In this document: positions 1-37,212 of the stretch, one piece after another | Layout: each line of letters begins with the position of its first letter | How positions within the stretch are numbered: position 1 is the first letter of the stretch | Source: a virus | Taxonomy: Duplodnaviria; Heunggongvirae; Uroviricota; Caudoviricetes | DNA: 38,593 bases | IMG/VR virus record: IMGVR_UViG_2778261460_000002 | Strand: one strand, 5' to 3' | Translations under genes and position numbers: made by a program | The notes under the pieces: model-generated | What the model was told of the DNA's origin: nothing | What the model saw: the letters and a program-made list of their open reading frames with translations, nothing else | The model's database searches: none

Positions 1-1053
1 TTACGGGGTAATGCCAACCGCTGCCGCCACTTTGTCGCCACTTGGCAGCGTTGCCAGAGGATTGAAACGGAGCGCCGTTTCCAGATGATCCGGTGCCAGA
101 TGTGCGTAACGCATAGTCATTTTTATATCGTGGTGTCCGAGAATTTTTTGTAAGGCCAGAATGTTTCCACCCGACATCATGAAGTGCGCCGCAAACGTAT
201 GGCGCAGAACGTGTGTGAGTTGACCGCGAGGGAGCACGATAGACGTTTTTTCCATCACGGATAAAAATTGAAAATAGCAGTCTGTGAAGAAATTGAACCC
301 ATCAAGCGCCATGATCTCTTCGTAAAGCTCTTTACTGATAGGGATGCTTCTGTTTTTCTTCCCCTTCGTTCTGACAAAGGTAATTCGGTATTTGGTCACC
401 TGTGAGCGAGTAAGATTTACGGCTTCACGCCAGCGTGCGCCTGTGCTTAAGCATATCTTAACTACCAGTGCCAGAATTGGGTCCTGACGTTTGCAATCAG
501 CCAGCAATTCAACAATCTGCTCATGGGTAAGCCATGCCATCTCTTTTTCTGCGATGGTGAATTTTCGCATGTTCTCCAGTGGGTTCGGATACGACCATTC
601 GCCCAGACGGGATAGTTCGCTAAAAACACTACTTAGATAGCTTTGCTCCAGGTTAATGGTGACCGGGCTTGCTCCTTTCTTCCATTTCTCGCTGAAGTAG
701 ATCTCGCCTGTCAGGCGTTTATCTCGATAGTGGGCAAACATTTTAGAGGTGAGATCGGTTGCAAGAGGATTGCCCAGAGCGTCAACCATCAACAGCAATT
801 TGTCATAGACATGCTGCCCAGCTGTCAGAGATTTACCATGTAGTTTGAACCATAGTTCAACCACGTCTTTCAGTGTTCGACGATCCACTGATTCACCCAG
901 CCAGGGCTTTGCTTCGGTTTCTTCCATCGTGTGACGCTCAAAAGCCAGAGCTTCGCCTTTGGTGGCGAATTGTTTACGCACACGACGTCCACTACGTCCG
1001 GCGGGGTAACATTCGCAAAGCCATTTTCCTGTGGTGAGTTTTCGTACTGCCAT
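1..1053 (-). CDS. int: Phage integrase (tyrosine recombinase), P2/186 Int-like
   Basis: 350-aa ORF with tyrosine-recombinase C-terminal motifs (HVLRHTFA, MRYAHL); sits at the prophage end as in P2/186. Stop codon is at positions 3..1. Confidence 0.9.
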   Translation of the reverse strand: MAVRKLTTGKWLCECYPAGRSGRRVRKQFATKGEALAFERHTMEETEAKPWLGESVDRRTLKDVVELWFKLHGKSLTAGQHVYDKLLLMVDALGNPLATDLTSKMFAHYRDKRLTGEIYFSEKWKKGASPVTINLEQSYLSSVFSELSRLGEWSYPNPLENMRKFTIAEKEMAWLTHEQIVELLADCKRQDPILALVVKICLSTGARWREAVNLTRSQVTKYRITFVRTKGKKNRSIPISKELYEEIMALDGFNFFTDCYFQFLSVMEKTSIVLPRGQLTHVLRHTFAAHFMMSGGNILALQKILGHHDIKMTMRYAHLAPDHLETALRFNPLATLPSGDKVAAAVGITP

Positions 1054-1136: not shown

Positions 1137-2813
1137 CTAAGCAACATGCAGTTCATCGTTGGCGGAAGTTGCTGCTTTGCGCTCTTGCTCAATCGCCAGT
1201 GACTCTCTATATTCTTTCGCTTCCGCAAACATTGTCCATTGTGCGTTGATGTTCATATCTTCAATAACAGACTTAATTTCTTTAATATTTACGTTGAAAA
1301 ACTCTTTTCGTGAGTTAATTTTATTGACCTGTTTTTCGTTGAAGACTTTATGCAGATGATTTTCTAATGATGGTGCATCATCACTATAAATCATCGCATG
1401 AACATCGAACGAAAAAGGAACACTAGCATCACCGAGTTCACGAACACGATCAAGTGGTTCAAGGCGGCGTGTCATTCCAATTTTATATACATCTTCGCCA
1501 AATGAGCCAATATTACTAATTATATAAACGTGGCCTGATCTAGTTTGTTGAGCCATAGAAATAGCTCGTTGGTTTTTAGCTTCAGCTTCTTCATATTTTA
1601 ACTGTAGTTCAGCTATTTTTTGCTCTAAAGCTAAGCGTTGTTCTTCATTTGCAAGCATAAGCTCTTTTGTTGCTTTATTTATAGCTTGCTGAATAGCTTT
1701 CTCTTCTTTTTCAGCTTCTTTTATCGCTTTTTCATACTCCCTACGAGCTCTTTCCTCTTCACGAAGTTGTTCTTTAATCCTTCTTTGCTCTTCTTTTTCT
1801 TCGAGCATAATTTCATTAACTGCAACTCCCCATTTTAGCTCGTTGAGTCGAGCTTGAAGATAGATGTCACTTATTTTTGCGGACCTAAAGGCAGAACCAT
1901 TGTAATTTACAAGTTGAAACGCATCTTTTATCTCTTGGGAAAGTTTTCCAAAATTGTTGTGTTTGACTTTTGATAAAATACTGTCAACTCTTCCATTGAA
2001 GGCATCTAAAACAAAGTTGATAGCAGTATTACGCCTGTTTTGTTCAACATAATCACACGAAGCAGCTTTATTAGTTTTTATTAATGATTTTGTTAACTCC
2101 CTGGCTTTTTGTAATTCCTTACCTGCATCTGTAAACTCATAATTTTCTGCCAATTCATCGAGAACGCTACGGTTAGGGATGATCCATTCATCACCATAAC
2201 CTTCAATTTTATTTTTCATTGATTTGGCAACTGCTTCATATTTTTCTGCAAACTCTTTAGCTTCATATGCTGAACCAGCAATCTCTTTTGCTCTTTCTTC
2301 TGCATCGGAAATAATTTTCACTGCATTGTCATTAGCATTTGAGATCAGCTCATTTGCTTTACTATTGGCATTATCAAGACGTTCTTTAGCTTTCAGGCGT
2401 GCATCGCGAGCGTCTTTAGTAATTGCTATAGCTTCGCTATTAGCGTTGCTTATTTTTATCTGAGCTTGATAATTTGCTTCGTTTACTGTCTTAGCAGCCT
2501 TTATTTGGGCTTCTTCTATTTTTTGCCTGGCTATTGAGTCTGCATTTTTTATCTTATTCTCTGCTTCCATCACTGCGCTGTGCAATTCTACGTATTGCCA
2601 TAATGGCGCAGCTCGTCCTTCAAGCTCTGATAGATCTCGTACAGTCTGTGCTAATTCTTCTTGATTTTCTTTCAGTTGGTTGGAAAGGGCTATGTTGTTA
2701 GCTGTCAAGGTATTTATAGCCGCTTTATGTTTTTTGCTTTGCTTAAATAATATTACAGCTAGAATGGGGGCGAGAAATGCTAATAAGAATATAACGATGG
2801 AAAATGAATTCAT
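1137..2813 (-). CDS. Membrane-anchored coiled-coil protein with C-terminal T5orf172 (GIY-YIG-like) domain; DUF4041-type architecture; candidate anti-phage/moron gene
   Basis: 558-aa ORF. N-terminal hydrophobic helix (SIVIFLLAFLAPILAVILF), long E/K/A/Q-rich coiled-coil region, C-terminal segment GHVYIISNIGSFGEDVYKIGMTRRLEPLDRVRELG typical of T5orf172. AT-rich relative to the phage backbone. Start codon 20 nt downstream of the cI stop with a GGA Shine-Dalgarno, same strand as cI and int. Confidence 0.7.
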   Translation of the reverse strand: MNSFSIVIFLLAFLAPILAVILFKQSKKHKAAINTLTANNIALSNQLKENQEELAQTVRDLSELEGRAAPLWQYVELHSAVMEAENKIKNADSIARQKIEEAQIKAAKTVNEANYQAQIKISNANSEAIAITKDARDARLKAKERLDNANSKANELISNANDNAVKIISDAEERAKEIAGSAYEAKEFAEKYEAVAKSMKNKIEGYGDEWIIPNRSVLDELAENYEFTDAGKELQKARELTKSLIKTNKAASCDYVEQNRRNTAINFVLDAFNGRVDSILSKVKHNNFGKLSQEIKDAFQLVNYNGSAFRSAKISDIYLQARLNELKWGVAVNEIMLEEKEEQRRIKEQLREEERARREYEKAIKEAEKEEKAIQQAINKATKELMLANEEQRLALEQKIAELQLKYEEAEAKNQRAISMAQQTRSGHVYIISNIGSFGEDVYKIGMTRRLEPLDRVRELGDASVPFSFDVHAMIYSDDAPSLENHLHKVFNEKQVNKINSRKEFFNVNIKEIKSVIEDMNINAQWTMFAEAKEYRESLAIEQERKAATSANDELHVA

Positions 2814-2833: not shown

Positions 2834-3430
2834 TTAATTTGAAACTATTGTACTTCTTATACAAGCAACTACTTCAATATCAGAAAATGCACATTCAAAG
2901 CTATTCTCTGTACTTGTAATTTTAATCATACCTTTTGGAAGCTTTGTGATTTTTCGAATGGAATAGGTTCCGTCGATGTTGATTAACCAGTGCCCATCAA
3001 GTACTTCAGAAAATTTTTGATCACAAATGTATGTGACGAGCCCATCCTGAATAACAATTGGTGATGAAAGATTTGCAGGAAGAAATGATGAATCGAAGAC
3101 ATATGAACCATCTTCAATCATTTTGCCTGCGGTAAGGCGAAACTTGGCAAGCTCTTCTGTAGCTGCTGTCAGCGAGCTTTGCTTAAGGCCTTGCCCGGTG
3201 GTTAACCATTTCAGTGAGGTTCCTGTTTCAAGAGCACATTGGATTATCCAGTCTGCAGGAAACGTATCCCGCAAATACCTGTTCGCCAGAGTGCTTTTTG
3301 ATACTTCCAAGTGATCAGCTAAAGCCTGTCGTGTCGTAAAGCCATAAGCTTCGACTAATCGCTCAATCGCAGCCTTACCACCTTTATTGGGATTTATTTT
3401 GATCTCATTTGGGTACTTTGATGTTGACAT
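2834..3430 (-). CDS. cI: Immunity repressor, phage 186 CI-like
   Basis: 198-aa ORF divergent from the apl/cII lytic operon; N-terminal helix-turn-helix-like region, size and position match 186 CI. Confidence 0.7.
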   Translation of the reverse strand: MSTSKYPNEIKINPNKGGKAAIERLVEAYGFTTRQALADHLEVSKSTLANRYLRDTFPADWIIQCALETGTSLKWLTTGQGLKQSSLTAATEELAKFRLTAGKMIEDGSYVFDSSFLPANLSSPIVIQDGLVTYICDQKFSEVLDGHWLINIDGTYSIRKITKLPKGMIKITSTENSFECAFSDIEVVACIRSTIVSN

Positions 3431-3477
3431 ATCTCTTTTGCGATCCTAGTATCAATTTTGTCCCCATTTGGGTACTT
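3406..3477 (+). repeat. Two exact copies of CATTTGGGTACTT (3406-3418 and 3465-3477) flanking the lytic promoter; candidate repressor/Apl operator elements
   Basis: 13-bp direct repeat read directly from the sequence, 59 bp apart, bracketing the -35/-10 of the putative pR. Confidence 0.4.
3424..3452 (+). promoter_or_regulatory. Putative early lytic promoter pR: -35 TTGACA (3424-3429), 17-bp spacer, -10 TAGTAT (3447-3452)
   Basis: Perfect -35 hexamer with canonical spacing to a near-consensus -10, upstream of apl and oriented toward it. Confidence 0.55.
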
Positions 3478-9563: not shown

Positions 9564-10175
9564 ATGGATTTAGTCTTTAAAATTCTGGCTTCGTTGGGTG
9601 GGGTGTCTTTTGTTGCATCTGGCATATTTGTTTGGATCGGGAAAGTTTATTTAGAAAGATATAAGTCGCGGCTAAACAAAGATATTGCTGAATTTCAATC
9701 ACAACTGAGTGCAACTAATGAAAGAATAAAGGCTAAGTTAGACAATTCTGTTTATGTAACGAAAGCGTATTTTGATAAGGAGTTATCAGCATATAGTCTC
9801 ATTTGGAATTCGATGTTTGAAACCAGAGAAAGCGTGCTTAAGCTGAGGCCTGCGCTGGATCATTTTGACCCCAACGAACCATTTGAAGAGAGAAAATTTA
9901 GAAGGTTGAAAGTTTTTTTCGATGCATTTAATACTTTTGTTACAAGTGTTGAGTCTAACAAACCGTTCATCTCACCAGAGGTTTATATAATCTTGGACCG
10001 TTTCCGGAAGGAATGCCTTTCAGAGTCAATATCGTTTCAGCATGGCGATCCAGAATTTGACTGGCAAAATTATTGGAAAGAGGCAGAGTTGAACCGTACA
10101 ACCATCACCAAGCTTTTTGATGAGACGTGTGATGCAATTCGAGACAGGATGCACACATTAACTGTGGTTACGTAG
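9564..10175 (+). CDS. Single-pass membrane protein of unknown function; accessory cargo in the old/tin-equivalent position
   Basis: 203-aa ORF with N-terminal hydrophobic helix (ILASLGGVSFVASGIFVWIG) and a soluble domain with no recognisable motifs; AT-rich; own promoter and terminator. Confidence 0.6.
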   Translation: MDLVFKILASLGGVSFVASGIFVWIGKVYLERYKSRLNKDIAEFQSQLSATNERIKAKLDNSVYVTKAYFDKELSAYSLIWNSMFETRESVLKLRPALDHFDPNEPFEERKFRRLKVFFDAFNTFVTSVESNKPFISPEVYIILDRFRKECLSESISFQHGDPEFDWQNYWKEAELNRTTITKLFDETCDAIRDRMHTLTVVT

Positions 10176-10266
10176 TTTTCCAAAAAGTCTCGATGCCCGC
10201 TTTGGCGATTGTGCATGTCTATGCCGCATGAATCCGCATGATCGTTTGAGGATCGTTTTAGCTGAG

Positions 10267-10290
10267 GCCCGCTAGGAATGGCGGGCTTTT
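10267..10290 (+). terminator. Rho-independent terminator (gcccgc-loop-gcgggc-tttt)
   Basis: Perfect 6-bp GC stem with 8-nt loop followed by TTTT, about 90 nt downstream of the 203-aa gene. Confidence 0.55.
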
Positions 10291-10335
10291 GCTTATGTCA
10301 TGCAGGCGCATGAAAACCACTACATAAAGCGGGCA

Positions 10336-10354
10336 GGCGTGGCGGGGATACGAG
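10336..10354. other. Probable cos site (cohesive-end region) GGCGTGGCGGGGATACGAG
   Basis: Matches from memory the start of the P2/186 cohesive end (GGCG[A/T]GGCGGGGA...), with a GCGCGCT tract after it as in P2; lies between the replication side and the portal gene. Not verified by alignment. Confidence 0.45.
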
Positions 10355-10367
10355 CGCGCGCTCATGG

Positions 10368-10396
10368 TTGAATTAATGAAATTATGGTGTTAAATA
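10368..10396 (+). promoter_or_regulatory. Putative sigma70 promoter for the 232-aa gene: -35 TTGAAT (10368-10373), 17-bp spacer, extended -10 TGtTAAATA (10388-10396)
   Basis: Read directly from the sequence; about 70 nt upstream of the ATG at 10465, which has a GGGAGGAG RBS. Confidence 0.45.
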
Positions 10397-10464
10397 GGCT
10401 AGCTTTTTAAGTCGTGAATATTCAATTTTTCAACTCATTTTTTTCATAGGGAGGAGTAATTGAC

Positions 10465-11163
10465 ATGGTTATGTTAGTGGATGACTGTCCACGATGTGGA
10501 TCACAAAAAATAGCGTTTGATGTTAATGGGCTGAATTGCACTAGGGTTTACAATGCATTGGGCGGGGGTAAAACATACGAGTACGAGGTCTATTGTGTTT
10601 GCCGAGAGTGTCATAAAACGACAATGTTTCTTTGCAGACCTTTAACGAAAAATAAAACTTTAGATGGCTATAATTGGAAAAGTGGAATATTCGGCTTAAA
10701 GGAAGTTGCAGAGGTTGTTAGGCCTATATCACCGGCAGACTTAGCAGTAGAGGAGCCACCAGAGTTCTTACCTGAGCATATCAATAGTGCATATGAGGAA
10801 GGGGCGAAATGTTTGGCTATAGGTTGTTATAATGCAGCAGCAACCATGTTTAGGCTTTGCCTTGATTATGCCACAAAAGGACTTCTTCCTGATGGGGAGC
10901 AAGGGCCTGCGCAAAAAATAAGGAGAAGCCTAGGGTTAAGAATGGAGTGGTTATTTGATAATCATCTACTGCCTGAAGCTTTAAGGGAACTAGCTGAATG
11001 CGTTAAAGATGACGGAAATGATGGAGCGCATGAAGGTATTTTGGATAAAGCTGCTGCTGAGGATCTTGAAGATTTTACCTATCTTTTTTTAGAACGGCTT
11101 TACACTGAACCTCAACGCCTTATCGAAGCCAAGACAAGGCGTGAACAAAGAAGAAACAAATAA
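10465..11163 (+). CDS. Zinc-ribbon protein with DUF4145/HEPN-like C-terminal domain; accessory cargo between cos and the portal gene
   Basis: 232-aa ORF; N-terminal CPRC-x35-CRECH Cys cluster; C-terminal helical region with GNDGAHEG resembling the RN..AHG motif of DUF4145 as recalled (arginine replaced). AT-rich, own promoter. Confidence 0.55.
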   Translation: MVMLVDDCPRCGSQKIAFDVNGLNCTRVYNALGGGKTYEYEVYCVCRECHKTTMFLCRPLTKNKTLDGYNWKSGIFGLKEVAEVVRPISPADLAVEEPPEFLPEHINSAYEEGAKCLAIGCYNAAATMFRLCLDYATKGLLPDGEQGPAQKIRRSLGLRMEWLFDNHLLPEALRELAECVKDDGNDGAHEGILDKAAAEDLEDFTYLFLERLYTEPQRLIEAKTRREQRRNK

Positions 11164-19944: not shown

Positions 19945-20796
19945 TTATTTCATTTCGTGTGGCATATTTATGGCTTTAATTTTTTCGTGGTAATGATTAA
20001 ACTCAATATGAGCATTGGTAAAATTAGATTCAAATGTATTCATTAAATTGGAATATAATGATTCATATGATAAGGATACTTTTTTTCCATTTTTTTCTGC
20101 AGTTGTGCTAATGTACCTATGTACTGCAGAAAAAAGAAAATGACCTCTAAGCCACTTTCTGTATTCTATCGATTTTGATTTGAAAGATGAATCGATGTTA
20201 TCTGGTTCCACACCTAATTTTTCAATGATGGTGTTTTTGTAACTCGTGATTTTTTGCTCGCAAATTTCATTTGATTTTCTAGATTTCATGAAACGATCTG
20301 CACTGTCACCAATAACTGAAATGCCTTTTCTATAAATATGATTGTATATATCAAGTTTTATTAGGGGTTCCATTTTGGTATAAAAGTCTTCTGTCCAAGA
20401 ATCGACGTTGACATCGTTCATTATCTTTTGAGGTAATTTTCCGAGAGTTTTTATTGCCTTATATATGCCTGTTTTGTCAATAAACGTGTTTTCGATGGAG
20501 TGCCCATAAGTTTTTACAATGCGACTATCAGCGTTTTCCTCATTTTCAAATGTAGTGAAGTCTGCATCACATGCAATTATAATTTGAAGATCTTCATCAG
20601 TAACTCTATCAATATATTTTTTTAATTCTTCACAGCCGCCAACATCTTTGATTTCAACCTTTAATGAACTAGCTTTATTAAAGATGATTTCCCAAAAGCA
20701 AATATCATCTGGGCCTTCAACATAAACCATGGCTTCAGCTTGGTAAAATAAATTCATTACATTTTCTGCTTCGGCAGAATAATGGAAATCATCCAT
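19945..20796 (-). CDS. DUF4435/Toprim-like nuclease, PARIS AriB-like (OLD-family Toprim fold)
   Basis: Open frame extends to 20880 (311 aa). The ATG at 20796 overlaps the upstream stop as ATGGATGA, so 283 aa is more likely. Toprim-like acidic motifs YVEGPDD and IIACDADF. Very AT-rich. Confidence 0.55.
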   Translation of the reverse strand: MDDFHYSAEAENVMNLFYQAEAMVYVEGPDDICFWEIIFNKASSLKVEIKDVGGCEELKKYIDRVTDEDLQIIIACDADFTTFENEENADSRIVKTYGHSIENTFIDKTGIYKAIKTLGKLPQKIMNDVNVDSWTEDFYTKMEPLIKLDIYNHIYRKGISVIGDSADRFMKSRKSNEICEQKITSYKNTIIEKLGVEPDNIDSSFKSKSIEYRKWLRGHFLFSAVHRYISTTAEKNGKKVSLSYESLYSNLMNTFESNFTNAHIEFNHYHEKIKAINMPHEMK

Positions 20797-22048
20797 GAAC
20801 CAATTTCTCCATATCAAAGATTGCATTTCGATATTTAGAAGCCACTTCTGGTGAATGCGTAGCGGCGATAATTTGCGCATTAGGATTAAGTTGTTTGATT
20901 GCAGGTATTATTTTTCGTTGCCATGCAATATGTAGCGATAATTCTGGTTCATCAGTAAGATAGATGAAAGGTTTGTTTTGCTGTAGCAAAGTTTCAATAA
21001 AAAGAATTAATAGCTGTTTTTCACCAGACGATAAATTACTATGGCTAATCGGCCCATGCTCGTTTTCTATTACTAGCTCACCGGAGATAAAATTAAATTT
21101 TTTATCGGTTATGAACTCATGTAATGTTTCTAAAAATAGATTTATAGGAAGAAATATGTTTTTTATTTTCTCCTCGGATTTTAAAGACATCTTTATAATT
21201 CTTTGCGTCTTTCGTAATGCCTCAAATGATCTGTAATCTACATTTAAAATATTTCTGTTATTTTTTTCTGCAAGTCGTAATTCTTCAAATGTTTTGGCAA
21301 TAGATTCAACGTGAAAGTTAATCTTCTTTCTGACATCACTATCAAAAGCTCCAAGCTGAGAATATGCAGCTATTAAATTTCTACGTTCTTTTTCTTTATC
21401 AAAAGAAAAGTTAAATGTGTCATCGATACCATCTTCTTTACTATAAAGAATAGAAGCAAGAACCTCTTTCTGTAATATTGCAGAAACATCACGAGCTCTT
21501 TGTGATAAATAAAGTTGATATTTTGTTAGGTTCTGCAATAATTGTTCTAATCGGTAATCAACAGGGTTGATTAATTTTGAGCCATATTTGTCTCTGATTT
21601 CAAAATCTTCACCGCTTCTAAGTCGGTAAACTGATAGAGAAGATAAAGCAACTAATTTATCTAACTCTAATTTAAGTTTTTCAACGTCTTCCTGATATTT
21701 TCTCCTCATATAAATAGGTAGTCTACGATCTTCAAAGGATCTGATAATATATTTCTTTCTAGAAATTGTATATTCAAACGTAGGCAAAGCTTTAGTTATG
21801 TCAAATTTACTCACAACTTTTATTGTTTTAGTTTTGCTTCCTTCTTTTATTTTTATTGTTACATTATCAAAACTATTCTCATTTAGTGATTCGAGTTCTA
21901 ATGCCAGAACTGAGTGAAGAATATTCATAAAGGTTGTTTTACCGGTCCCATTTCGACCAATAATAATATTTACATCTTCATTAAATGAACATGATGCATT
22001 TAGTCTTCCCCAAAAACCTTCAATCTTGACACTAGATAATCTAAACAT
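20789..22048 (-). CDS. ABC-type ATPase (AAA_15/AAA_21-like), PARIS AriA-like
   Basis: 419 aa; Walker A GRNGTGKTT, Walker B-like IYLTDEPE, H-loop AATHSPEV; translationally coupled to the downstream DUF4435 gene. Confidence 0.6.
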   Translation of the reverse strand: MFRLSSVKIEGFWGRLNASCSFNEDVNIIIGRNGTGKTTFMNILHSVLALELESLNENSFDNVTIKIKEGSKTKTIKVVSKFDITKALPTFEYTISRKKYIIRSFEDRRLPIYMRRKYQEDVEKLKLELDKLVALSSLSVYRLRSGEDFEIRDKYGSKLINPVDYRLEQLLQNLTKYQLYLSQRARDVSAILQKEVLASILYSKEDGIDDTFNFSFDKEKERRNLIAAYSQLGAFDSDVRKKINFHVESIAKTFEELRLAEKNNRNILNVDYRSFEALRKTQRIIKMSLKSEEKIKNIFLPINLFLETLHEFITDKKFNFISGELVIENEHGPISHSNLSSGEKQLLILFIETLLQQNKPFIYLTDEPELSLHIAWQRKIIPAIKQLNPNAQIIAATHSPEVASKYRNAIFDMEKLVHG

Positions 22049-23978: not shown

Positions 23979-24576
23979 TCTGCTGCCACCGGGTTCAACT
24001 TCACTGGAGCGCCGACTGGCGCAAACCTGTAGCGGGATTTCTGATTTGCAGGTGCCGCTGCGTGACTTGTGGAATCCGGCTACCTGTCCGGTCAGCTTCC
24101 TGCCTTATCTCGCCTGGGCGTTCTCTGTGGATCGCTGGGACGAGGGCTGGACAGAAAGCGTCAAACGCCAGGTAGTGAAGGATGCTTTTTATATTCATCA
24201 GCATAAAGGAACCACCAGTGCCGTGCGGCGGGTGGTGGAACCGTTCGGATTCCTGATCCGCATTATTGAGTGGTGGCAGACCGGAGAAACACCGGGCACG
24301 TTTCGCCTGGATATCGGCGTGCAGGACCAGGGCATCACTGAAGATACCTATCTGGAACTTGAGCGACTGATAAGCGATGCCAAACCATGTAGCCGCCACA
24401 TGATCGGCATGTCCATCAATCTGCAGACCAGCGGCCCGCATTGGGTGGGAGCCGCCAGCTATCTTGGCGAAGAAATCACGATCTATCCGTATATCAACGA
24501 AACGATTATTTCCGGTGGCACCGCGCATGAAGGCGGGGCGGTCCATGTTATTGACACAATGAGAGTGAATCCATGA
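23971..24576 (+). CDS. Baseplate/tail protein I
   Basis: 201-aa ORF between J and the tail fibre gene. Confidence 0.7.
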   Translation: MNSLLPPGSTSLERRLAQTCSGISDLQVPLRDLWNPATCPVSFLPYLAWAFSVDRWDEGWTESVKRQVVKDAFYIHQHKGTTSAVRRVVEPFGFLIRIIEWWQTGETPGTFRLDIGVQDQGITEDTYLELERLISDAKPCSRHMIGMSINLQTSGPHWVGAASYLGEEITIYPYINETIISGGTAHEGGAVHVIDTMRVNP

Positions 24577-25916
24577 GCACAAAATTTTATACCCTGCTGA
24601 CGGATATTGGCGCGGCGAAACTTGCCAGCGCCGCCGCGCTCGGTGTGCCGCTAAAAATTACCTATATGGCGGTGGGCGATGGCGGTGGAGTATTGCCAAC
24701 GCCGGACGCAAAGCAGACGGCACTGGTAAATGAGAAACGCCGGGCTGCGCTGAATATGCTTTATATCGACCCGCAGAACAGCAGCCAGATTATTGCCGAA
24801 CAGGTGATCCCTGAAAACGAGGGCGGTTGGTGGATACGTGAAGTGGGCTTGTTTGATGAGTCCGGGGCATTGATTGCTGTGGGCAACTGCCCGGAAAGCT
24901 ATAAGCCGCAACTGGCTGAAGGTAGCGGGCGCACTCAGACCGTGCGCATGGTGCTGATTACCAGCAGCACGGTCAATATCACCCTGAAAATCGACCCTGC
25001 TGTAGTGCTGGCAACCCGCAAGTATGTGGATGACAAGGCACTGGAGCTGAAGGTGTACGCGGATGATCAGATGGCAAAACATCTTGCCGCACCGGACCCG
25101 CATTCACAGTACGCGCCAAAAGCCAGCCCGACATTTACCGGAACCCCCAAAGCGCCAACGCCAGCGGCGGGGAATAATACCACGCAGGTTGCGACCACTG
25201 CGTTTGTACAGGCGGCACTGACGGCCCTTATTAATGGTACGCCAGCCACGCTGGACACGCTGAAAGAAATAGCCGCAGCCATTAACAATGATCCGAATTT
25301 CAGTACCACCATTAACAATGCGCTGGCACTTAAAGCACCGTTGTCGAGTCCGGCACTCACCGGAACGCCAACAGCCCCCACGGCGGCGCAGTCGGTCAAC
25401 AATACACAGATTGCCACTACGGCTTTTGTGAAATCGGCGATTGCAGGAATGGTGGGTTCTGCACCTGCTGCACTGGATACACTGAACGAACTGGCGGCGG
25501 CACTGGGGAATGATCCGAACTTTGCCACGACAATGCTTAATGCGCTGGCAGGTAAACAACCGCTGGACAATACGCTTACCAATTTGAGTGGAAAGGATGT
25601 AGCTGGTCTTCTCACATACCTTGGTTTTGGAGAAGGTGCTAACTGGGTTATGTTACCTGGAGGAATGATAATTCAGCGTGTTTATCTTGGATTTCCTATT
25701 GGCACCAATGCAAGACACATAACTTTCCCCCGGTCGTTTACAACAACGAACTATTCCATCTCAATTAACTGGAATGATATCGGTACTGTAACAACTGAAA
25801 CACAATCACCAGCAAATGTGGCGGTTGTTCATCAAACAAAATCATTAACAGGGGCCAGCATCTGGCAGGCAGGTCCCGGGGGATTTAATGTGGACATTAT
25901 AGCGGTGGGGTATTGA
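24573..25916 (+). CDS. Tail fibre protein H; the C-terminal ~94 codons lie inside the invertible segment
   Basis: 447-aa ORF with repeated [11 protein letters not shown] / [11 protein letters not shown] motifs; contains a hix/gix-like crossover site at 25609-25634. Confidence 0.8.
25609..25634 (+). repeat. hix/gix-like 26-bp recombination site (left): TTCTCACATACC TT GGTTTTGGAGAA
   Basis: Right half GGTTTTGGAGAA matches 11 of 12 positions of the gix right half as recalled; 2-bp core TT. Confidence 0.6.
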
Positions 25917-25917
25917 T

Positions 25918-26346
25918 ATGTACGTATGGAGCGCTAAATCAAATGGCTTTTTCCCCATATCGGAGAAAGAAAAATTTGAGGCATCAGGTCTGTGGCCTGA
26001 TGATGGTGTAATAGTCAGTGAGGAAGAACATAAAAAGTTATTTATGGATATTCCACCAGGAAAACAGATTGGAACACTGAATGGAAAACCAGCACTGATA
26101 GATATTCCTCAGCCGACCAAAAAGGAATTAATAGCTATTGCTGAAGTTAAAAAATCCCAATTACGGGAAAAAGCTGACAGTGAAATATCCTGGCGTCAGG
26201 ATGCTGTTGATGCTGATATCGCAACTGATGAAGAAACTTCAACTCTCACCGAATGGAAGAAATACCGTGTGCTGCTGATGCGTGTTGATACTTCAACAGC
26301 ACCCGATATTGAATGGCCTACGCCTCCGGCAGTTCAGGCCAGATGA
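25918..26346 (+). CDS. Tail fibre assembly protein (P2 gpG / Tfa-like), current-orientation copy
   Basis: 142 aa, C-terminal [13 protein letters not shown] shared with the inverted copy. Confidence 0.7.
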
Positions 26347-26911
26347 CATCCGGCGCGGTGCTGGTATCTGTTGCCGTCACCGCGTCAATGTAATCCAGCA
26401 CGGTGTTAAGTCGGGTTGTTTCTGCCTGAGTCAGTTTCCGTCCGGCCTGTAATTTCAGCTGAATCAGACTAATGGAAGCCATTACTGCATCAATCAGTGA
26501 CTGGCGCTGTGCTTCTGCTGCTTCTACTGCGGCACCGTGTTGTGCCTCAGTATCTGTCACCCATTTCTCACCATCCCATTTATCATATGGCGTTAACGGT
26601 GAAAGCGTGACATAACCGTTTTTGATGGCACCGATATAATCCACTGTAACAGCTGCGCCATTTTCTGTTGAGTAAACAGTCTCATTGCGATGGTCTTCTT
26701 CATGGCTCCATCCCTTACCCGTAAATACTGCCACTTTCCCCGGAATGTTTTCGCCCGGGTCAATACCAGTGGAACAGGCGGGCATACTTACGCCAGTATT
26801 AATATATTCATCAGACCAGCCCGTATATTCAGACGTTACTGCATCATAATAAAAACAACGCATATCACCCGGCACTGTAGCCAGTCCATTTTCATCAAAA
26901 ACAGGTTTCAT
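26318..26911 (-). CDS. Alternative tail fibre assembly protein (Tfa'), inverted-orientation copy
   Basis: 197 aa on the minus strand, C-terminal [14 protein letters not shown]. Confidence 0.65.
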
Positions 26912-27408
26912 TATTTAGCCCTCACCAGAAAGTTAAATGCAATATTTCGCGGTCTGACAGCAACAAAATTCACACCATCACCCACAGAGTTACTGGTGAA
27001 ATTAAATCGTGAAAATCCTGGCTGATTTCCGGCGATGCCATCATGAAAGTTAATTGCGTGTCCCGCACCTCCGCCTATATTCCCGGCAAACTGAGAAAAG
27101 TTTGTAGCTTCCTGCCAGCTTAATAATTCGCGACCACCGTCTGCACCTCGCCCGTCATCCCAGATACGAATGAAATCACCGCGGGCTTCAGGTAATATCA
27201 GCGAAGGAAACACTTTCGCCAGCACAGGATAATCAGTGGCAGAGAATTTCGCGCCGTTGAACTTCAAAAACACCATACTGGACCAGCTGTCGATTACAGT
27301 ATTTGGCATTGCAGCGGACGGCCAGAAGAACGGAACGCCAATAGCTGGAGCACCTTCTCCCAAACCAACGTTTATGAAAATGCAGAGATAACGGCTAACT
27401 GGCATCAT
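26911..27408 (-). CDS. Alternative tail-fibre C-terminal cassette (H'), promoterless, expressed only after inversion
   Basis: Minus-strand frame open through the right hix-like site; my frame arithmetic shows it joins H in frame after inversion about the 2-bp cores. Confidence 0.55.
   Translation of the reverse strand: MMPVSRYLCIFINVGLGEGAPAIGVPFFWPSAAMPNTVIDSWSSMVFLKFNGAKFSATDYPVLAKVFPSLILPEARGDFIRIWDDGRGADGGRELLSWQEATNFSQFAGNIGGGAGHAINFHDGIAGNQPGFSRFNFTSNSVGDGVNFVAVRPRNIAFNFLVRAK
27355..27380 (+). repeat. hix/gix-like 26-bp recombination site (right, inverted): TTCTCCCAAACC AA CGTTTATGAAAA
   Basis: Reverse complement TTTTCATAAACG TT GGTTTGGGAGAA aligns with the left site at about 21 of 26 positions with the same TT core. 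Confidence 0.55.
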
Positions 27409-27435
27409 CCCCGGTTTTTATTCAGGGGATTGATC

Positions 27436-28002
27436 ATGCTTATTGGCTATGTACGCGTGTCAACAAATGACCAGAACACCGATTTGCAACGTAATGCACT
27501 GAACTGCGCGGGATGTGAGCGGATTTTTGAGGACAAAATCAGTGGCACTAAGTCCGACAGACCGGGGCTGAAAAAACTACTCAGGACACTATCGGCAGGA
27601 GACACGCTGGTTGTCTGGAAGCTGGACAGGTTGGGGCGCAGTATGCGGCATCTTGTTACGCTGATAGAAGAGTTGCGCCAGCGTGGTGTGAATTTCAGAA
27701 GCCTGACTGACAGTATTGATACCAGTACCCCAATGGGCCGTTTCTTTTTTCATGTCATGGGTGCCCTGGCTGAAATGGAACGCGAACTGATAGTTGAACG
27801 TACCAGGGCAGGGCTGGCTGCAGCTCGTGCCAAAGGCAGAGTAGGTGGACGCCGTCCTAAGTTGACCACCGAACAGTGGGCACAGATTGGGCGTTTACTC
27901 GAGGCCGGAGAATCAAGACAGCGTATTGCACTGATTTTTGATGTAGGCGTTTCTACCATTTATAGAAAATTTCCGGCAAATAAGATCAATGAATCCCCCT
28001 GA
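27436..28002 (+). CDS. Serine recombinase, DNA invertase of the Hin/Gin/Cin/Pin family
   Basis: 188-aa product from ATG 27436 (MLIGYVRVSTNDQ...); catalytic serine context YVRVST, C-terminal helix-turn-helix; adjacent to the invertible segment. Confidence 0.85.
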   Translation: MLIGYVRVSTNDQNTDLQRNALNCAGCERIFEDKISGTKSDRPGLKKLLRTLSAGDTLVVWKLDRLGRSMRHLVTLIEELRQRGVNFRSLTDSIDTSTPMGRFFFHVMGALAEMERELIVERTRAGLAAARAKGRVGGRRPKLTTEQWAQIGRLLEAGESRQRIALIFDVGVSTIYRKFPANKINESP

Positions 28003-35072: not shown

Positions 35073-35291
35073 ATGATGATTTGCCCACTGTGTGGAAGTG
35101 CCGCCCATACTCGCAGCAGTTTTCAGGTATCTTCATTGACCAAAGAGCGTTACAACCAGTGCCAGAACATTAACTGCAGCCATACTTTTGTTACCCATGA
35201 AACTTTTGTTCGTTCGATTGCAACGCCAAAAGAGTCAAATCCGGTTCAGCCGCATCCAATGAAATCAGGACAGGTGGCGCTCTCTCTTTGA
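35073..35291 (+). CDS. ogr: Ogr/Delta-family zinc-finger late transcription activator
   Basis: 72-aa product MMICPLCGSAAHTRSS...QCQNINCSHTF with the Cys4 zinc finger (CPLC ... CQNINC) characteristic of P2 Ogr; terminal phage gene. Confidence 0.8.
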   Translation: MMICPLCGSAAHTRSSFQVSSLTKERYNQCQNINCSHTFVTHETFVRSIATPKESNPVQPHPMKSGQVALSL

Positions 35292-35370
35292 CTCTGCCGC
35301 CAATTTGTCGCCATCGTTAAAAAACACTGCTTCTAACATCATGATTTTAAAAGGCATAAATTTCAGGCAA

Positions 35371-35414
35371 CAAAAAACCCATCAACCTTGAACCGAAATG
35401 GCGGGGTTGATGGG
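35371..35414 (-). terminator. Rho-independent terminator for ybjL (stem cccatcaacc/ggttgatggg then U-run on the minus strand)
   Basis: 10-bp perfect inverted repeat; minus-strand transcript ends with UUUUUUG; about 115 nt downstream of the ybjL stop. Confidence 0.5.
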
Positions 35415-35526
35415 CTCCACAAAATGGGGACATCAAAGAAAAGCAGTGGCACTAATTAAGACTGATGCCCTGCGGAAAAGTTCTGCGGTTGTGCAAAAAA
35501 ATTTCATTTTCAGGGCAACTTCAGTT

Positions 35527-37212
35527 TTATCCTAATCCTGGCCATACCATGACGATGATTGTCCCTGCCAGCGTCAGCAGGACGTTGGCGATTGCGTAGG
35601 TGCCCGCATAGCCCAGCGCAGGGATGTTACTGCGAGCTGTATCACTGATGATCTCCATTGCCGGCGCGCAGGTGCGTGCGCCCATCATTGCGCCGAACAA
35701 CAGTGCGCGGTTCATTCGCAATACATAAGCACCGAACAAGAAACAGATAACCACGGGCACAAGACTGACAATTAATCCGGCAATCAACATCTGACCGCCA
35801 ATCGCGCCCAGGCCGTTATTAATACCGCTACCGGCGCTCAGACCAACGCCTGCCATAAACACCATCAAGCCGAACTCTTTCACCATGCTTAATGCACCTT
35901 GCGGAATGTAACCGAAGGTCGGGTGGTTAGCACGCATAAAGCCCAGCATAATTCCGGCGAATAACAACCCGGCAGCGTTCCCCATGCCGAAACTGAATGT
36001 GCTGAACTGGAAGGTGATCATCCCGATCATCAGCCCAATAACAAAGAAGGCGCAAAATGCCAGCAGGTCAGTGACCTGGCTGTGAATCGAGATAAAGCCG
36101 ATGCGATCGGCGATGGTTTTTACGCGACGGGCATCACCGCTGACTTGTAAAACGTCACCTTTGTTAAGCACGACGTTGTCATCTATCGGCATCTCAATCT
36201 GGCTACGAATGACGCGGTTAAGGAAGCAACCGTGATCGGTCAACTTCAGTTGTGCGAGACGTTTACCTACAGCGTTATGGTTTTTAACGACCACTTCTTC
36301 AGTGACGATACGCATGTCGAGAAGGTCACGATCGAAAACTTCTTTACCGTTACGGAAGCTGGGATCGAGTCGGGCATGGGCGTCGGGATAGCCTACCAAC
36401 GCTATTTCATCGCCCATTTGTAGCACGGCATCACCGTCTGGATTTGCAAGAATCCCGTTACGTCGAATACGTTCAATGTAGCAGCCGGTTTGTCGATAAA
36501 TACCCAGTTCACGCAGATTTTTGCCGTCGGTCCAGGCCACGAGCTCCGGGCCGACGCGATAGGCGCGGATCACCGGTAAATAAACCTTACGGTTGGCATC
36601 AGTGTCCAGGCCACGTTCGCGGGCGATTTGCTGGGCGCTGGTCTGTAAGTCCTGATGCTGCAATTTCGGCAAGTAACGCGCACCAACAATCAAACTCACC
36701 AGACCGATTAAATAGGTTAAGGCATACCCGAGGCTCAGATTATCCAGTGCCAGTGAGAGCTGCCTGCTTTCCATGCCGGAATGACGCAGTGTATCGCCAG
36801 CACCGACCAGAACCGGTGTCGACGTCATAGAGCCTGCTAACATACCGGCCGTCAGGCCAATATCCCAGCCAAACAGCTTACCTAACCCTAAGGCGATCAC
36901 CAGCGCACTGCCAACCATCACCAGTGCTAACATTAGGTAATTTTTCCCATCGCGAAAAAAAATGGAAAAAAAGTTCGGTCCGGCTTCGACCCCGACGCAG
37001 AAAATAAACAGCATAAAGCCAAGATTAAGCGCATCGGTGTTAATGCTGAAATGTTGTTGGCCTAATAACAGCGATACGACTAAAACGCCAATGGAATTAC
37101 CCAGTTGGATCGAACCAAGTCGTAACTTTCCGAGACATAGCCCAAGCGCGAGGACCACAAATAATAACAGAATGTAATTCCCATTTAACAATTCGGCGAC
37201 GTTTATATTCAC
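35527..37212 (-). CDS. ybjL: Putative transport protein YbjL (AAE-family transporter)
   Basis: 561-aa polytopic membrane protein with two membrane domains flanking a cytoplasmic region; matches E. coli YbjL as recalled. Confidence 0.85.

What the first reader, a model, noticed from the sequence alone, without database searches (positions are those of the whole stretch)
35292..35414. Prophage-host junction next to the ybjL terminator
The last phage gene (ogr) ends at 35291 and a strong minus-strand terminator for ybjL lies at 35371-35414, so the right attachment site should fall in the intervening roughly 80 bp. The left junction is outside the window (int stop is at position 3). Insertion downstream of ybjL would be an integration site I do not recognise for P2 or 186, but I cannot verify that from this window.
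Basis: inference. Interest (0 to 1): 0.4.

Follow-up and report, generated by a model that had tools for sequence, protein, structure and literature searches.

The report
Prophage right end inside rybB sRNA
This is the ordinary right-hand junction of a P2/186-family prophage, but the hairpin next to it belongs to the small regulatory RNA gene rybB rather than to ybjL, and the phage inserts into and rebuilds the last 11 bases of that gene, a site already described in the literature.

Summary
The junction is real, but it is placed and labelled slightly wrongly. Genomes with an empty site align with the window from base 35356 onward. The att core is ATAAATTTCAGGCAACAAAAAACCCAT (35356-35382).

Rfam identifies that hairpin as the terminator of the sRNA gene rybB (35369-35447, minus strand, 105 bits). 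The prophage therefore sits in the 3' end of rybB and restores it, as phages that target tRNA genes do.

Related lysogens supply the missing attL, which lies about 100 bp left of the window. One phage record (KP12) holds the reconstructed attP as one contiguous stretch. In 898 lysogens attL keeps a host-type left half of the core, while attR has the phage type. Only one genome shows the reverse. Strand exchange therefore lies within AACAAAAAACCCAT (35369-35382).

Paired repeats TGYCGCCA-N3-TGYCGCCA at 22-40 and 35295-35313 match the 186-type Int arm-site consensus.

The site is already documented: PhiECO1/PhiECO3 (phi-b0847 of CFT073), Kpn38RybB, and E. coli hotspot #29. About 1,100 of 5,426 complete E. 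coli genomes carry a prophage here. This is an already known feature of low interest.

The parts
1..1053 (-). int, a tyrosine integrase of the 186 type (350 aa); its stop codon is at window bases 1-3
   Evidence: Pfam Int_N 3.2e-32 and Phage_integrase 7.2e-22. It is 56% identical to 186 Int and 35% identical to P2 Int.
22..40 (+). P' arm: two direct Int arm-type repeats (TGCCGCCACTT, TGTCGCCACTT), 11 bp apart, inside the 3' coding end of int
   Evidence: The pattern TGYCGCCANNNTGYCGCCA occurs only twice in the window, against 0 expected. It matches the 186-type consensus tgccGCCActt (PMC3448106) and YAYCGCCAYTY in the 186 record. In P2 the P' arm sites also lie inside the int 3' end. In CFT073 the repeats are kept as non-coding DNA.
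35073..35291 (+). ogr, the late-gene activator and last phage gene
   Evidence: Pfam Ogr_Delta 5e-22. Annotated as ogr/Delta in matching genomes.
35292..35355 (.). P arm of attP: phage-specific DNA between ogr and the core
   Evidence: It is absent from empty sites, whose alignments start at 35356. It is contiguous with the core and the P' arm in phage record KP12.
35295..35313 (+). P arm: two direct Int arm-type repeats (TGCCGCCAATT, TGTCGCCATCG)
   Evidence: They lie 61 bp before the core start, against 63 bp in P2.
35334..35346 (-). Candidate IHF site (AATCATGATGTTA, one mismatch to WATCAANNNNTTR) between the P arm sites and the core
   Evidence: Consensus scan. It is conserved in CFT073, WP8 and KP12. 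IHF sites occupy the same position in P2 and 186. No binding was tested.
35356..35382 (.). attR copy of the 27-bp att core ATAAATTTCAGGCAACAAAAAACCCAT
   Evidence: It is identical in attL of PA45B and CFT073 and in attR. There is a single copy in the window. K-12 attB differs at core positions 5, 9, 12 and 13.
35369..35382 (.). AACAAAAAACCCAT, the part of the core within which strand exchange must occur
   Evidence: WP8 has a host-type left half in attL and a phage-type left half in attR. 898 genomes have such a hybrid attL. Only 1 genome has the reciprocal attR.
35369..35450 (-). rybB small-RNA gene. The transcript starts at 35450 and ends in the U-tract at 35372-35377. Its last 11 nt lie inside the att core.
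   Evidence: Rfam RF00110, 35369-35447, 105.3 bits, E 1.6e-22. rybB is annotated at this place in MG1655. The 5' end at 35450 comes from my own knowledge of the RybB sequence.
35372..35414 (-). Intrinsic terminator of rybB: stem 35378-35387 with 35405-35414, U-tract 35372-35377
   Evidence: Fold energy -23.3 kcal/mol. Structure line of the Rfam alignment.
35457..35483 (-). Promoter-like element upstream of rybB (GAACTT, 16 nt, TCTTA), of sigma-E type
   Evidence: Read directly from the sequence. The sigma-E dependence of rybB is established knowledge and was not tested here.
35527..37212 (-). ybjL, the host gene upstream of rybB on the same strand
   Evidence: ORF. Annotated as the aspartate:alanine antiporter YbjL.

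Best explanation
The interval holds attR of a prophage of about 35.5 kb from the P2 family (Peduoviridae). Its structural genes are closest to Elveevirus, and its Int and switch genes are of the 186 type. The prophage is integrated by its tyrosine integrase into the 3' end of the sigma-E-dependent small-RNA gene rybB, which lies between rcdA and ybjL.

Shown:
- The phage attP carries a 27-bp core (35356-35382). It copies the last 11 nt of rybB (5 bp of the terminator stem plus T6) and 16 nt of downstream spacer.
- Recombination takes place within the 14 bp nearest int (35369-35382).
- attR therefore joins host rybB to a phage-supplied 3' end of identical sequence, and the rybB sequence is unchanged.

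Inferred:
- At attL, and in free phage DNA, the same core follows a phage hairpin (AACCCGUUUACAUAAAUGGGUU plus U6). I infer that this hairpin terminates the int/lysogenic transcript.
- Int is positioned by paired arm-type repeats on both arms (35295-35313 and 22-40), probably together with IHF sites. The layout matches the mapped attP regions of P2 and 186. No protein binding was tested here.
For: - Boundary: empty-site genomes align from 35356 onward.
- Alignment of attL, attB and attR gives the 27-bp core.
- The reconstructed attP is found in one contiguous piece at 99.5% identity in phage record OM835953.
- The related Klebsiella phage 4LV2017 has an annotated attL, GCAGGCAACAAAAAACCCAT.
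- RybB covariance-model hit of 105 bits, and rybB annotation in MG1655.
- Crossover mapping from natural variation: 898 hybrid attL against 1 reciprocal attR.
- The arm-repeat pattern occurs only at the two prophage ends and matches the published 186-type consensus.
- Int is 56% identical to 186 Int.
- The anatomy parallels the annotated P2 and 186 attP regions.
- The hairpins fold as described.
- The literature names this site.
Against: - attL of this particular genome is outside the window. The exact source is not in the collection; the best match is 99.7% identical. The duplication was therefore shown in close relatives, not in this strain.
- The exact cleavage positions, Int and IHF binding, and the terminator role of the attL hairpin (only -9 kcal/mol, z -0.6 to -2.2) are all inferred.
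- The simple terminator scan reported nothing in this region, because the rybB loop exceeds its loop limit.
- One genome has the reciprocal hybrid attR. Exchange to the left of the polymorphisms, or a later gene conversion, is therefore possible but rare.
Confidence: 0.93

Rival explanations
1. One reading: the att site lies wholly within the roughly 80-bp spacer 35292-35370. The hairpin is only the ybjL terminator, and the location is a previously unrecognised integration site for this phage family.
For: The phage-host boundary does fall in the interval. ybjL has no other hairpin between its stop and this one, so read-through from ybjL may also stop here.
Against: The core runs to 35382, inside the hairpin. 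The hairpin is the RybB terminator. The site is documented and is occupied in about 1,100 of 5,426 genomes.
Confidence: 0.04
2. The 19/20 direct repeat CTGCCGCCA[C/A]TTTGTCGCCA at 21-40 and 35294-35313 is the duplicated att core. The junctions would then lie right after ogr and inside int.
For: It is the only long direct repeat shared by the two ends of the window.
Against: Both copies are phage DNA. They are absent from empty sites. [quoted passage not shown] They match the Int arm-site consensus of 186-type phages.
Confidence: 0.01
3. The element is a fixed, non-mobile remnant, and its position reflects vertical inheritance or homologous exchange rather than repeated site-specific integration.
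For: Occupancy is high and could partly reflect clonal expansion.
Against: - The prophage has a complete gene set.
- Diverse prophage variants sit at the same site in different host backgrounds, with both attB alleles.
- A free-phage-type contiguous attP exists.
- Related phages use the same core in Klebsiella.
Confidence: 0.02

Closest known systems
PhiECO1 / PhiECO2 / PhiECO3 (= phi-b0847 of E. coli CFT073) / PhiSEN1 integration-site group (Nilsson et al. 2011, PMC3448106; Wiles et al. 2013, PMC3573123)
   Same: Same chromosomal site between rcdA and ybjL. CFT073 has the same 27-bp core, P arm and P' arm. The integrase is of the same 186 type, and the arm-repeat consensus is the same.
   Different: The cargo differs. 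This window carries PD-Lambda-1 and PARIS, while CFT073 carries neaT. CFT073 also has an extra 270-nt gene between the P' arm sites and int.
Kpn38RybB island of Klebsiella pneumoniae (Hudson et al. 2014, PMC4048246), E. coli defence hotspot #29 (Hochhauser et al. 2023, PMC10121019), and Klebsiella phage 4LV2017
   Same: Prophages of this family integrated within rybB. 4LV2017 shares about 96% identical int DNA, and its annotated attL is GCAGGCAACAAAAAACCCAT.
   Different: Different host genus, or only hotspot-level descriptions. These papers do not give the crossover window or the arm anatomy reported here.
Coliphage 186 attP (NC_001317)
   Same: Int is 56% identical. The arm-type repeats CGCCAYTY lie on both arms. 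IHF sites flank the core. The target is the 3' end of a structured RNA gene, and the crossover lies at the end of the identity block nearest int.
   Different: 186 targets tRNA-Ile (ileY) with a 36-bp identity block that is absent here. Its lysogenic terminator lies beyond the core in the P arm, and its P' arm sites are outside int.
Coliphage P2 attP (NC_001895)
   Same: Same order and similar spacing: ogr, P arm Int sites, IHF, 27-bp core, accessory-protein region, int stop, then P' arm sites inside the int 3' end.
   Different: A different core (AAAAAATAAGCCCGTGTAAGGGAGATT) and different arm repeats (TGTGGACA type). Int is only 35% identical. The P2 host sites are not in rybB.
Integration into 3' ends of tRNA and tmRNA genes (Williams 2002; Fels-2 and SopE-phi in ssrA), and the ryeA/ryeB sRNA hot spot (Balbontin et al. 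2008, cited in PMC3603311)
   Same: The principle is the same. The identity block runs from the crossover through the 3' end of a structured RNA gene, so the gene is rebuilt after insertion.
   Different: The target here is an Hfq-dependent sRNA terminator, and only 11 nt of the gene are replaced.

Membership tests
attR of a site-specifically integrated tyrosine-integrase prophage (P2/186 family) | A tyrosine integrase gene lies at the opposite prophage end, next to att | tested here: met
   Pfam Int_N and Phage_integrase. 56% identical to 186 Int.
attR of a site-specifically integrated tyrosine-integrase prophage (P2/186 family) | The same core sequence is present at both prophage ends as a direct repeat | tested here: met
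   27/27 identity between attL of PA45B or CFT073 and attR. In K-12-type hosts the identity is 14/14 plus 9/13. attL of this very genome is outside the window.
attR of a site-specifically integrated tyrosine-integrase prophage (P2/186 family) | Uninterrupted empty sites (attB) exist, with one core copy and homology that breaks exactly at the core | tested here: met
   Alignments start at 35356 in empty-site genomes. K-12 site read.
attR of a site-specifically integrated tyrosine-integrase prophage (P2/186 family) | A contiguous attP (P arm, core, P' arm) exists in phage DNA | tested here: met
   OM835953 (KP12) matches with 100% coverage at 99.5% identity in one piece.
attR of a site-specifically integrated tyrosine-integrase prophage (P2/186 family) | Arm-type Int-binding direct repeats lie on both arms (186-type consensus tgccGCCActt) | tested here: met
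   The pattern is found only at 22-40 and 35295-35313, with 0 expected. Consensus. Binding itself was not tested.
attR of a site-specifically integrated tyrosine-integrase prophage (P2/186 family) | IHF and excisionase (Apl/Cox) binding sites in the arms | tested here: inconclusive
   Three matches to the IHF consensus with at most one mismatch, in the expected places. No motif is shared between the P' arm and the cI-apl switch region.
attR of a site-specifically integrated tyrosine-integrase prophage (P2/186 family) | Int-catalysed strand exchange at defined positions in the core | not testable with these tools
   Natural hybrids (898 against 1) only bound it to 35369-35382.
RybB sRNA (Rfam RF00110) | Covariance-model score above the gathering threshold over the full model | tested here: met
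   105.3 bits against 40, model positions 1-79 of 79, E 1.6e-22.
RybB sRNA (Rfam RF00110) | Conserved location between rcdA (ybjK) and ybjL, on the ybjL strand | tested here: met
   MG1655 annotation. Gene order.
RybB sRNA (Rfam RF00110) | A sigma-E-dependent promoter and an expressed RNA of about 80 nt | not testable with these tools
   GAACTT-16-TCTTA is visible at 35457-35483. Expression and sigma-E dependence rest on the literature, not on a test here.
P2 attachment sites (locI and others) | Similarity to the 27-nt P2 core and TGTGGACA-type arm repeats | tested here: not met
   P2 core and arms read. The core and arm repeats here are different.
186 attachment site (ileY tRNA-Ile) | A 36-bp tRNA-Ile 3' identity block | tested here: not met
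   No match with up to 3 mismatches. The window has no tRNA gene.
   The hairpin and U-tract are real. They lie 113-155 nt beyond the ybjL stop and form the 3' end of rybB. Whether ybjL read-through ends there was not tested.

The most novel reading that the evidence does not exclude
Two readings are not excluded.

1. The phage int transcript ends in a hairpin plus U-tail whose last 11 nt are identical to the 3' end of RybB. It could yield an Hfq-binding 3' fragment that competes with or mimics RybB, linking lysogeny to the envelope-stress response.

2. The four-base polymorphism in the left half of attB affects how easily the prophage enters or leaves. Occupancy is about 35% in K-12-type hosts and about 12% in hosts whose site matches the phage perfectly. 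This difference is more likely due to phylogeny and sampling.
Probability: 0.05. Interest if true: 0.4.

Novelty: already known. Interest (0 to 1): 0.15.

Why it matters
- It corrects the annotation of this window. The hairpin is rybB, a conserved regulator of outer-membrane proteins, and the prophage rebuilds it rather than disrupting it.
- It gives exact coordinates for the att core, the crossover window and the Int arm sites of a very common E. coli prophage family, which occupies about one complete genome in five. These coordinates are useful for delimiting prophages and for engineering, such as curing or integration vectors.
- It reveals no new biology.

Tried and rejected
Folding and Rfam settled the question instead.
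- I first suspected that the 19/20 repeat at 21-40 and 35294-35313 was the att core. I rejected this once empty sites and contiguous attP showed that both copies are phage DNA and match the Int arm consensus.
- I tested whether the P' arm repeat ACAATAAGTT also occurs in the cI-apl switch region, as Apl/Cox sites would. No match was found.
- I looked for the exact source genome to read its own attL. The best complete genomes are 99.7% identical over 1-25000, so attL was taken from relatives (L001, L003, L007).
- Phage record vB_EcoM-813R9 seemed to have a different P arm. It is a prophage excerpt that includes host rcdA, so it is simply an attL.
- Paper searches for ybjL with P2-like prophage, and for rybB with attB and phage, gave nothing on the site. 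Searches for b0847 and for rybB with prophage and integration site did.
- The exact cleavage sites and the core-type Int half-sites could not be deduced from sequence.

Full report
**What is in the sequence**

The window is a P2-family prophage followed by host genes. The integrase gene lies on the minus strand with its stop codon at bases 1-3. The last phage gene, ogr, ends at 35291. To the right come ybjL (35527-37212, minus strand), ybjM, grxA and ybjC. This host flank is 99.6% identical to K-12.

The minus strand of 35372-35414 folds into a 10-bp G+C-rich stem followed by U6, with an energy of -23.3 kcal/mol.

**Where the junction is**

A search of 35250-35560 against 5,426 complete E. coli genomes matched 5,419 of them. 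In 1,109 genomes the match spans ogr through ybjL, so those genomes have a prophage at this site. In the others the match starts at query base 107, which is window 35356.

I fetched several reference sequences:
- The empty site of K-12 (L002).
- The left junctions of three lysogens: PA45B (L001), WP8-S17-ESBL-05, whose prophage is 99.7% identical to window 1-25000 (L003), and CFT073 (L007).

Aligning attL, attB and attR gives a 27-bp core, ATAAATTTCAGGCAACAAAAAACCCAT, at window 35356-35382. It occurs once in the window. In the relatives, the attL core starts 3 nt after the rcdA stop and ends 74 bp before the int stop, so attL lies about 100 bp outside this window. Phage-specific DNA ends at 35355, and nothing phage-derived lies beyond 35382.

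Joining the window's P arm and core to the P' arm of L003 gives a predicted attP. This sequence is present in one contiguous piece, at 99.5% identity, in phage record OM835953, "Klebsiella phage KP12". The related Klebsiella phage 4LV2017 has an annotated attL, GCAGGCAACAAAAAACCCAT.

**What the hairpin really is**

The MG1655 annotation lists the small RNA gene rybB under the rcdA-side match. Rfam finds RybB (RF00110) at 35369-35447 on the minus strand. The score is 105.3 bits against a gathering score of 40, E 1.6e-22, over the full model.

Between the ybjL stop and the rybB start, the minus strand reads GAACTT-16 nt-TCTTA (35457-35483). This fits the sigma-E promoter known for rybB from the literature; I did not test it. 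ybjL read-through may also stop at this hairpin, but that too is untested.

The att core covers the last 11 nt of rybB (5 bp of the stem plus T6) and 16 nt beyond its 3' end. From core position 14 rightwards, attR is identical to K-12 attB, so the rybB sequence is unchanged in the lysogen.

**Where strand exchange happens**

K-12-type hosts differ from the phage core at positions 5, 9, 12 and 13. In WP8, attL keeps the host-type left half while attR has the phage-type left half. Short junction queries, designed so that only one allele could seed a match, gave these counts:

| Junction type | Genomes |
|---|---|
| Hybrid attL (host-type left half) | 898 |
| attL with phage-type left half | 191 |
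| Reciprocal attR (P arm plus host-type left half) | 1 |
| Empty K-12-type sites | 1,568 |

Exchange therefore occurs to the right of core position 13, within AACAAAAAACCCAT (35369-35382). This is the end of the identity block nearest int, as is predicted for 186. It also fits the usual logic of RNA-gene targets: the phage supplies the gene's 3' end. The exact cut sites cannot be derived from sequence.

**The rest of the attP anatomy**

*Arm repeats.* The only long repeat shared by the two ends of the window is CTGCCGCCA[C/A]TTTGTCGCCA, at 21-40 and 35294-35313. Each copy holds two TGYCGCCA units 11 bp apart. The pattern occurs nowhere else in 38.6 kb, against 0 expected. It matches two published consensus sequences:
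- The 186-type Int arm-site consensus tgccGCCActt (PMC3448106).
- YAYCGCCAYTY in the 186 record.

Int is 56% identical to 186 Int, with a well conserved N-terminal region. It is 35% identical to P2 Int.

*Layout compared with P2.* The order is ogr, P arm sites, candidate IHF site (35334-35346), 27-bp core, repeats in the accessory region, int stop, then P' arm sites inside the int 3' end. This mirrors the mapped P2 attP in both order and spacing. The P arm to core distance is 61 bp here against 63 bp in P2. In P2 the P' sites also lie inside int.

*Evidence that the P' sites are kept as DNA sites.* In CFT073 a 270-nt gene has been inserted next to int. The old int 3' end with its arm repeats survives there as non-coding DNA, which suggests that the repeats are kept as DNA sites.

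*P' arm.* The P' arm holds two 19-bp-spaced repeats, AAACAATAAGTT(A/G). Each is one mismatch from the IHF consensus. I found no related motif in the cI-apl switch region, so binding by Apl/Cox is unsupported.

*Phage hairpin.* At attL and in attP, the core is preceded in the int sense by a phage hairpin, AACCCGUUUACAUAAAUGGGUU, followed by U6 (-9 kcal/mol). I infer that this is the terminator of the int transcript. Phage and host would then share the tail of a terminator as their recombination site.

**Comparison with what is known**

The site is neither the P2 site nor the 186 site. The P2 core differs, the 186 tRNA-Ile block is absent, and the window has no tRNA gene. The site is nevertheless documented:
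- Nilsson et al. 2011 group PhiECO1 (strain HS), PhiECO2, PhiECO3 (CFT073 908870-942351) and PhiSEN1 under one integration site. I confirmed that the CFT073 coordinates lie between rcdA and ybjL, with the same core.
- Wiles et al. 2013 study this prophage as phi-b0847.
- Hudson et al. 2014 describe Kpn38RybB as lying "precisely within" rybB.
- Hochhauser et al. 2023 describe hotspot #29 as Felsduovirus prophages integrated within rybB, found in 109 genomes. They cite Bobay et al. 2013, who proposed sRNA genes as prophage targets.

The structural genes of this prophage are 96-99% identical to Escherichia phage Cartapus and Klebsiella phage 4LV2017, both in the genus Elveevirus.

**Verdict**

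The finding is a real but ordinary attR junction. However, the core overlaps the hairpin, the hairpin belongs to rybB rather than to ybjL, and the site is already known and very common. What this check adds is precise coordinates, a 14-bp crossover window derived from natural hybrids, and the arm-site anatomy. Interest is low.

Noticed in passing
window 1137-2813 (-): A DUF4041 protein lies between int and cI. It matches the PD-Lambda-1 anti-phage defence family (E 4.7e-120) and sits in the known defence-cargo slot of P2-like phages.
   Followed up: partly
window 19945-22048 (-): A two-gene insert lies on the opposite strand among the tail and baseplate genes. It matches PARIS: AriA (AAA ATPase, E 5.7e-40) and AriB (DUF4435, E 2.3e-24).
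   Followed up: partly
window 9564-11163 (+): Two cargo ORFs lie near the cos end. One is a DUF4145 protein with a weak PD-T7-4 match (E 1.2e-6). The other is a 203-aa ORF with no defence-family match, annotated in a relative, implausibly, as valyl-tRNA synthetase.
   Followed up: partly
window 24573-28002: A tail-fibre gene is followed by oppositely oriented tail-fibre and assembly ORFs (26318-27408, minus strand) and a recombinase ORF (27430-28002, plus strand). This looks like a Gin/Cin-type invertible host-range segment, judged from the annotation of the WP8 relative.
   Followed up: partly
L007 (CFT073) 940-1340: In CFT073 attL, a 270-nt hypothetical gene is inserted between the P' arm sites and a different int 3' end. 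A 45-nt relic of the int end, carrying the arm repeats, is left as non-coding DNA.
   Followed up: partly
rcdA-rybB spacer, window 35356-35368 and its equivalent in other genomes: There are two host alleles of the left half of the core. Occupancy by the prophage is about 35% in K-12-type hosts (898 of about 2,500) and about 12% in hosts matching the phage (191 of 1,550). The difference is probably confounded by phylogeny and sampling.
   Followed up: partly
NZ_CP148423.1 (strain Z1323CEC0015) 2704019-2704072: This is the only genome of 5,426 whose attR carries the host-type left half of the core next to the phage P arm. It could reflect a rare exchange further left or a later gene conversion.
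   Followed up: no
L006 (OM835953, 'Klebsiella phage KP12 clone KP12_3, partial sequence'): The record is filed under Vequintavirinae, yet it holds a P2-family genome with ogr-attP-int contiguous and 99.5% identical to this E. coli prophage. It is probably a co-assembled induced prophage that has been mislabelled.
   Followed up: no
L009 (phage 186) 1927-1960 compared with window 35366-35377: The predicted terminator of the 186 lysogenic operon ends in TTTTTGTTGCCT. This is nearly the same tail as the core here (TTTTTTGTTGCCT), although in 186 it lies in the P arm and not in the core. It could be a coincidence or shared ancestry.
   Followed up: no
window about 3406-3477: The cI-apl intergenic region holds two direct copies of CATTTGGGTACTT about 59 bp apart. 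They are likely repressor operators of this immunity type.
   Followed up: no
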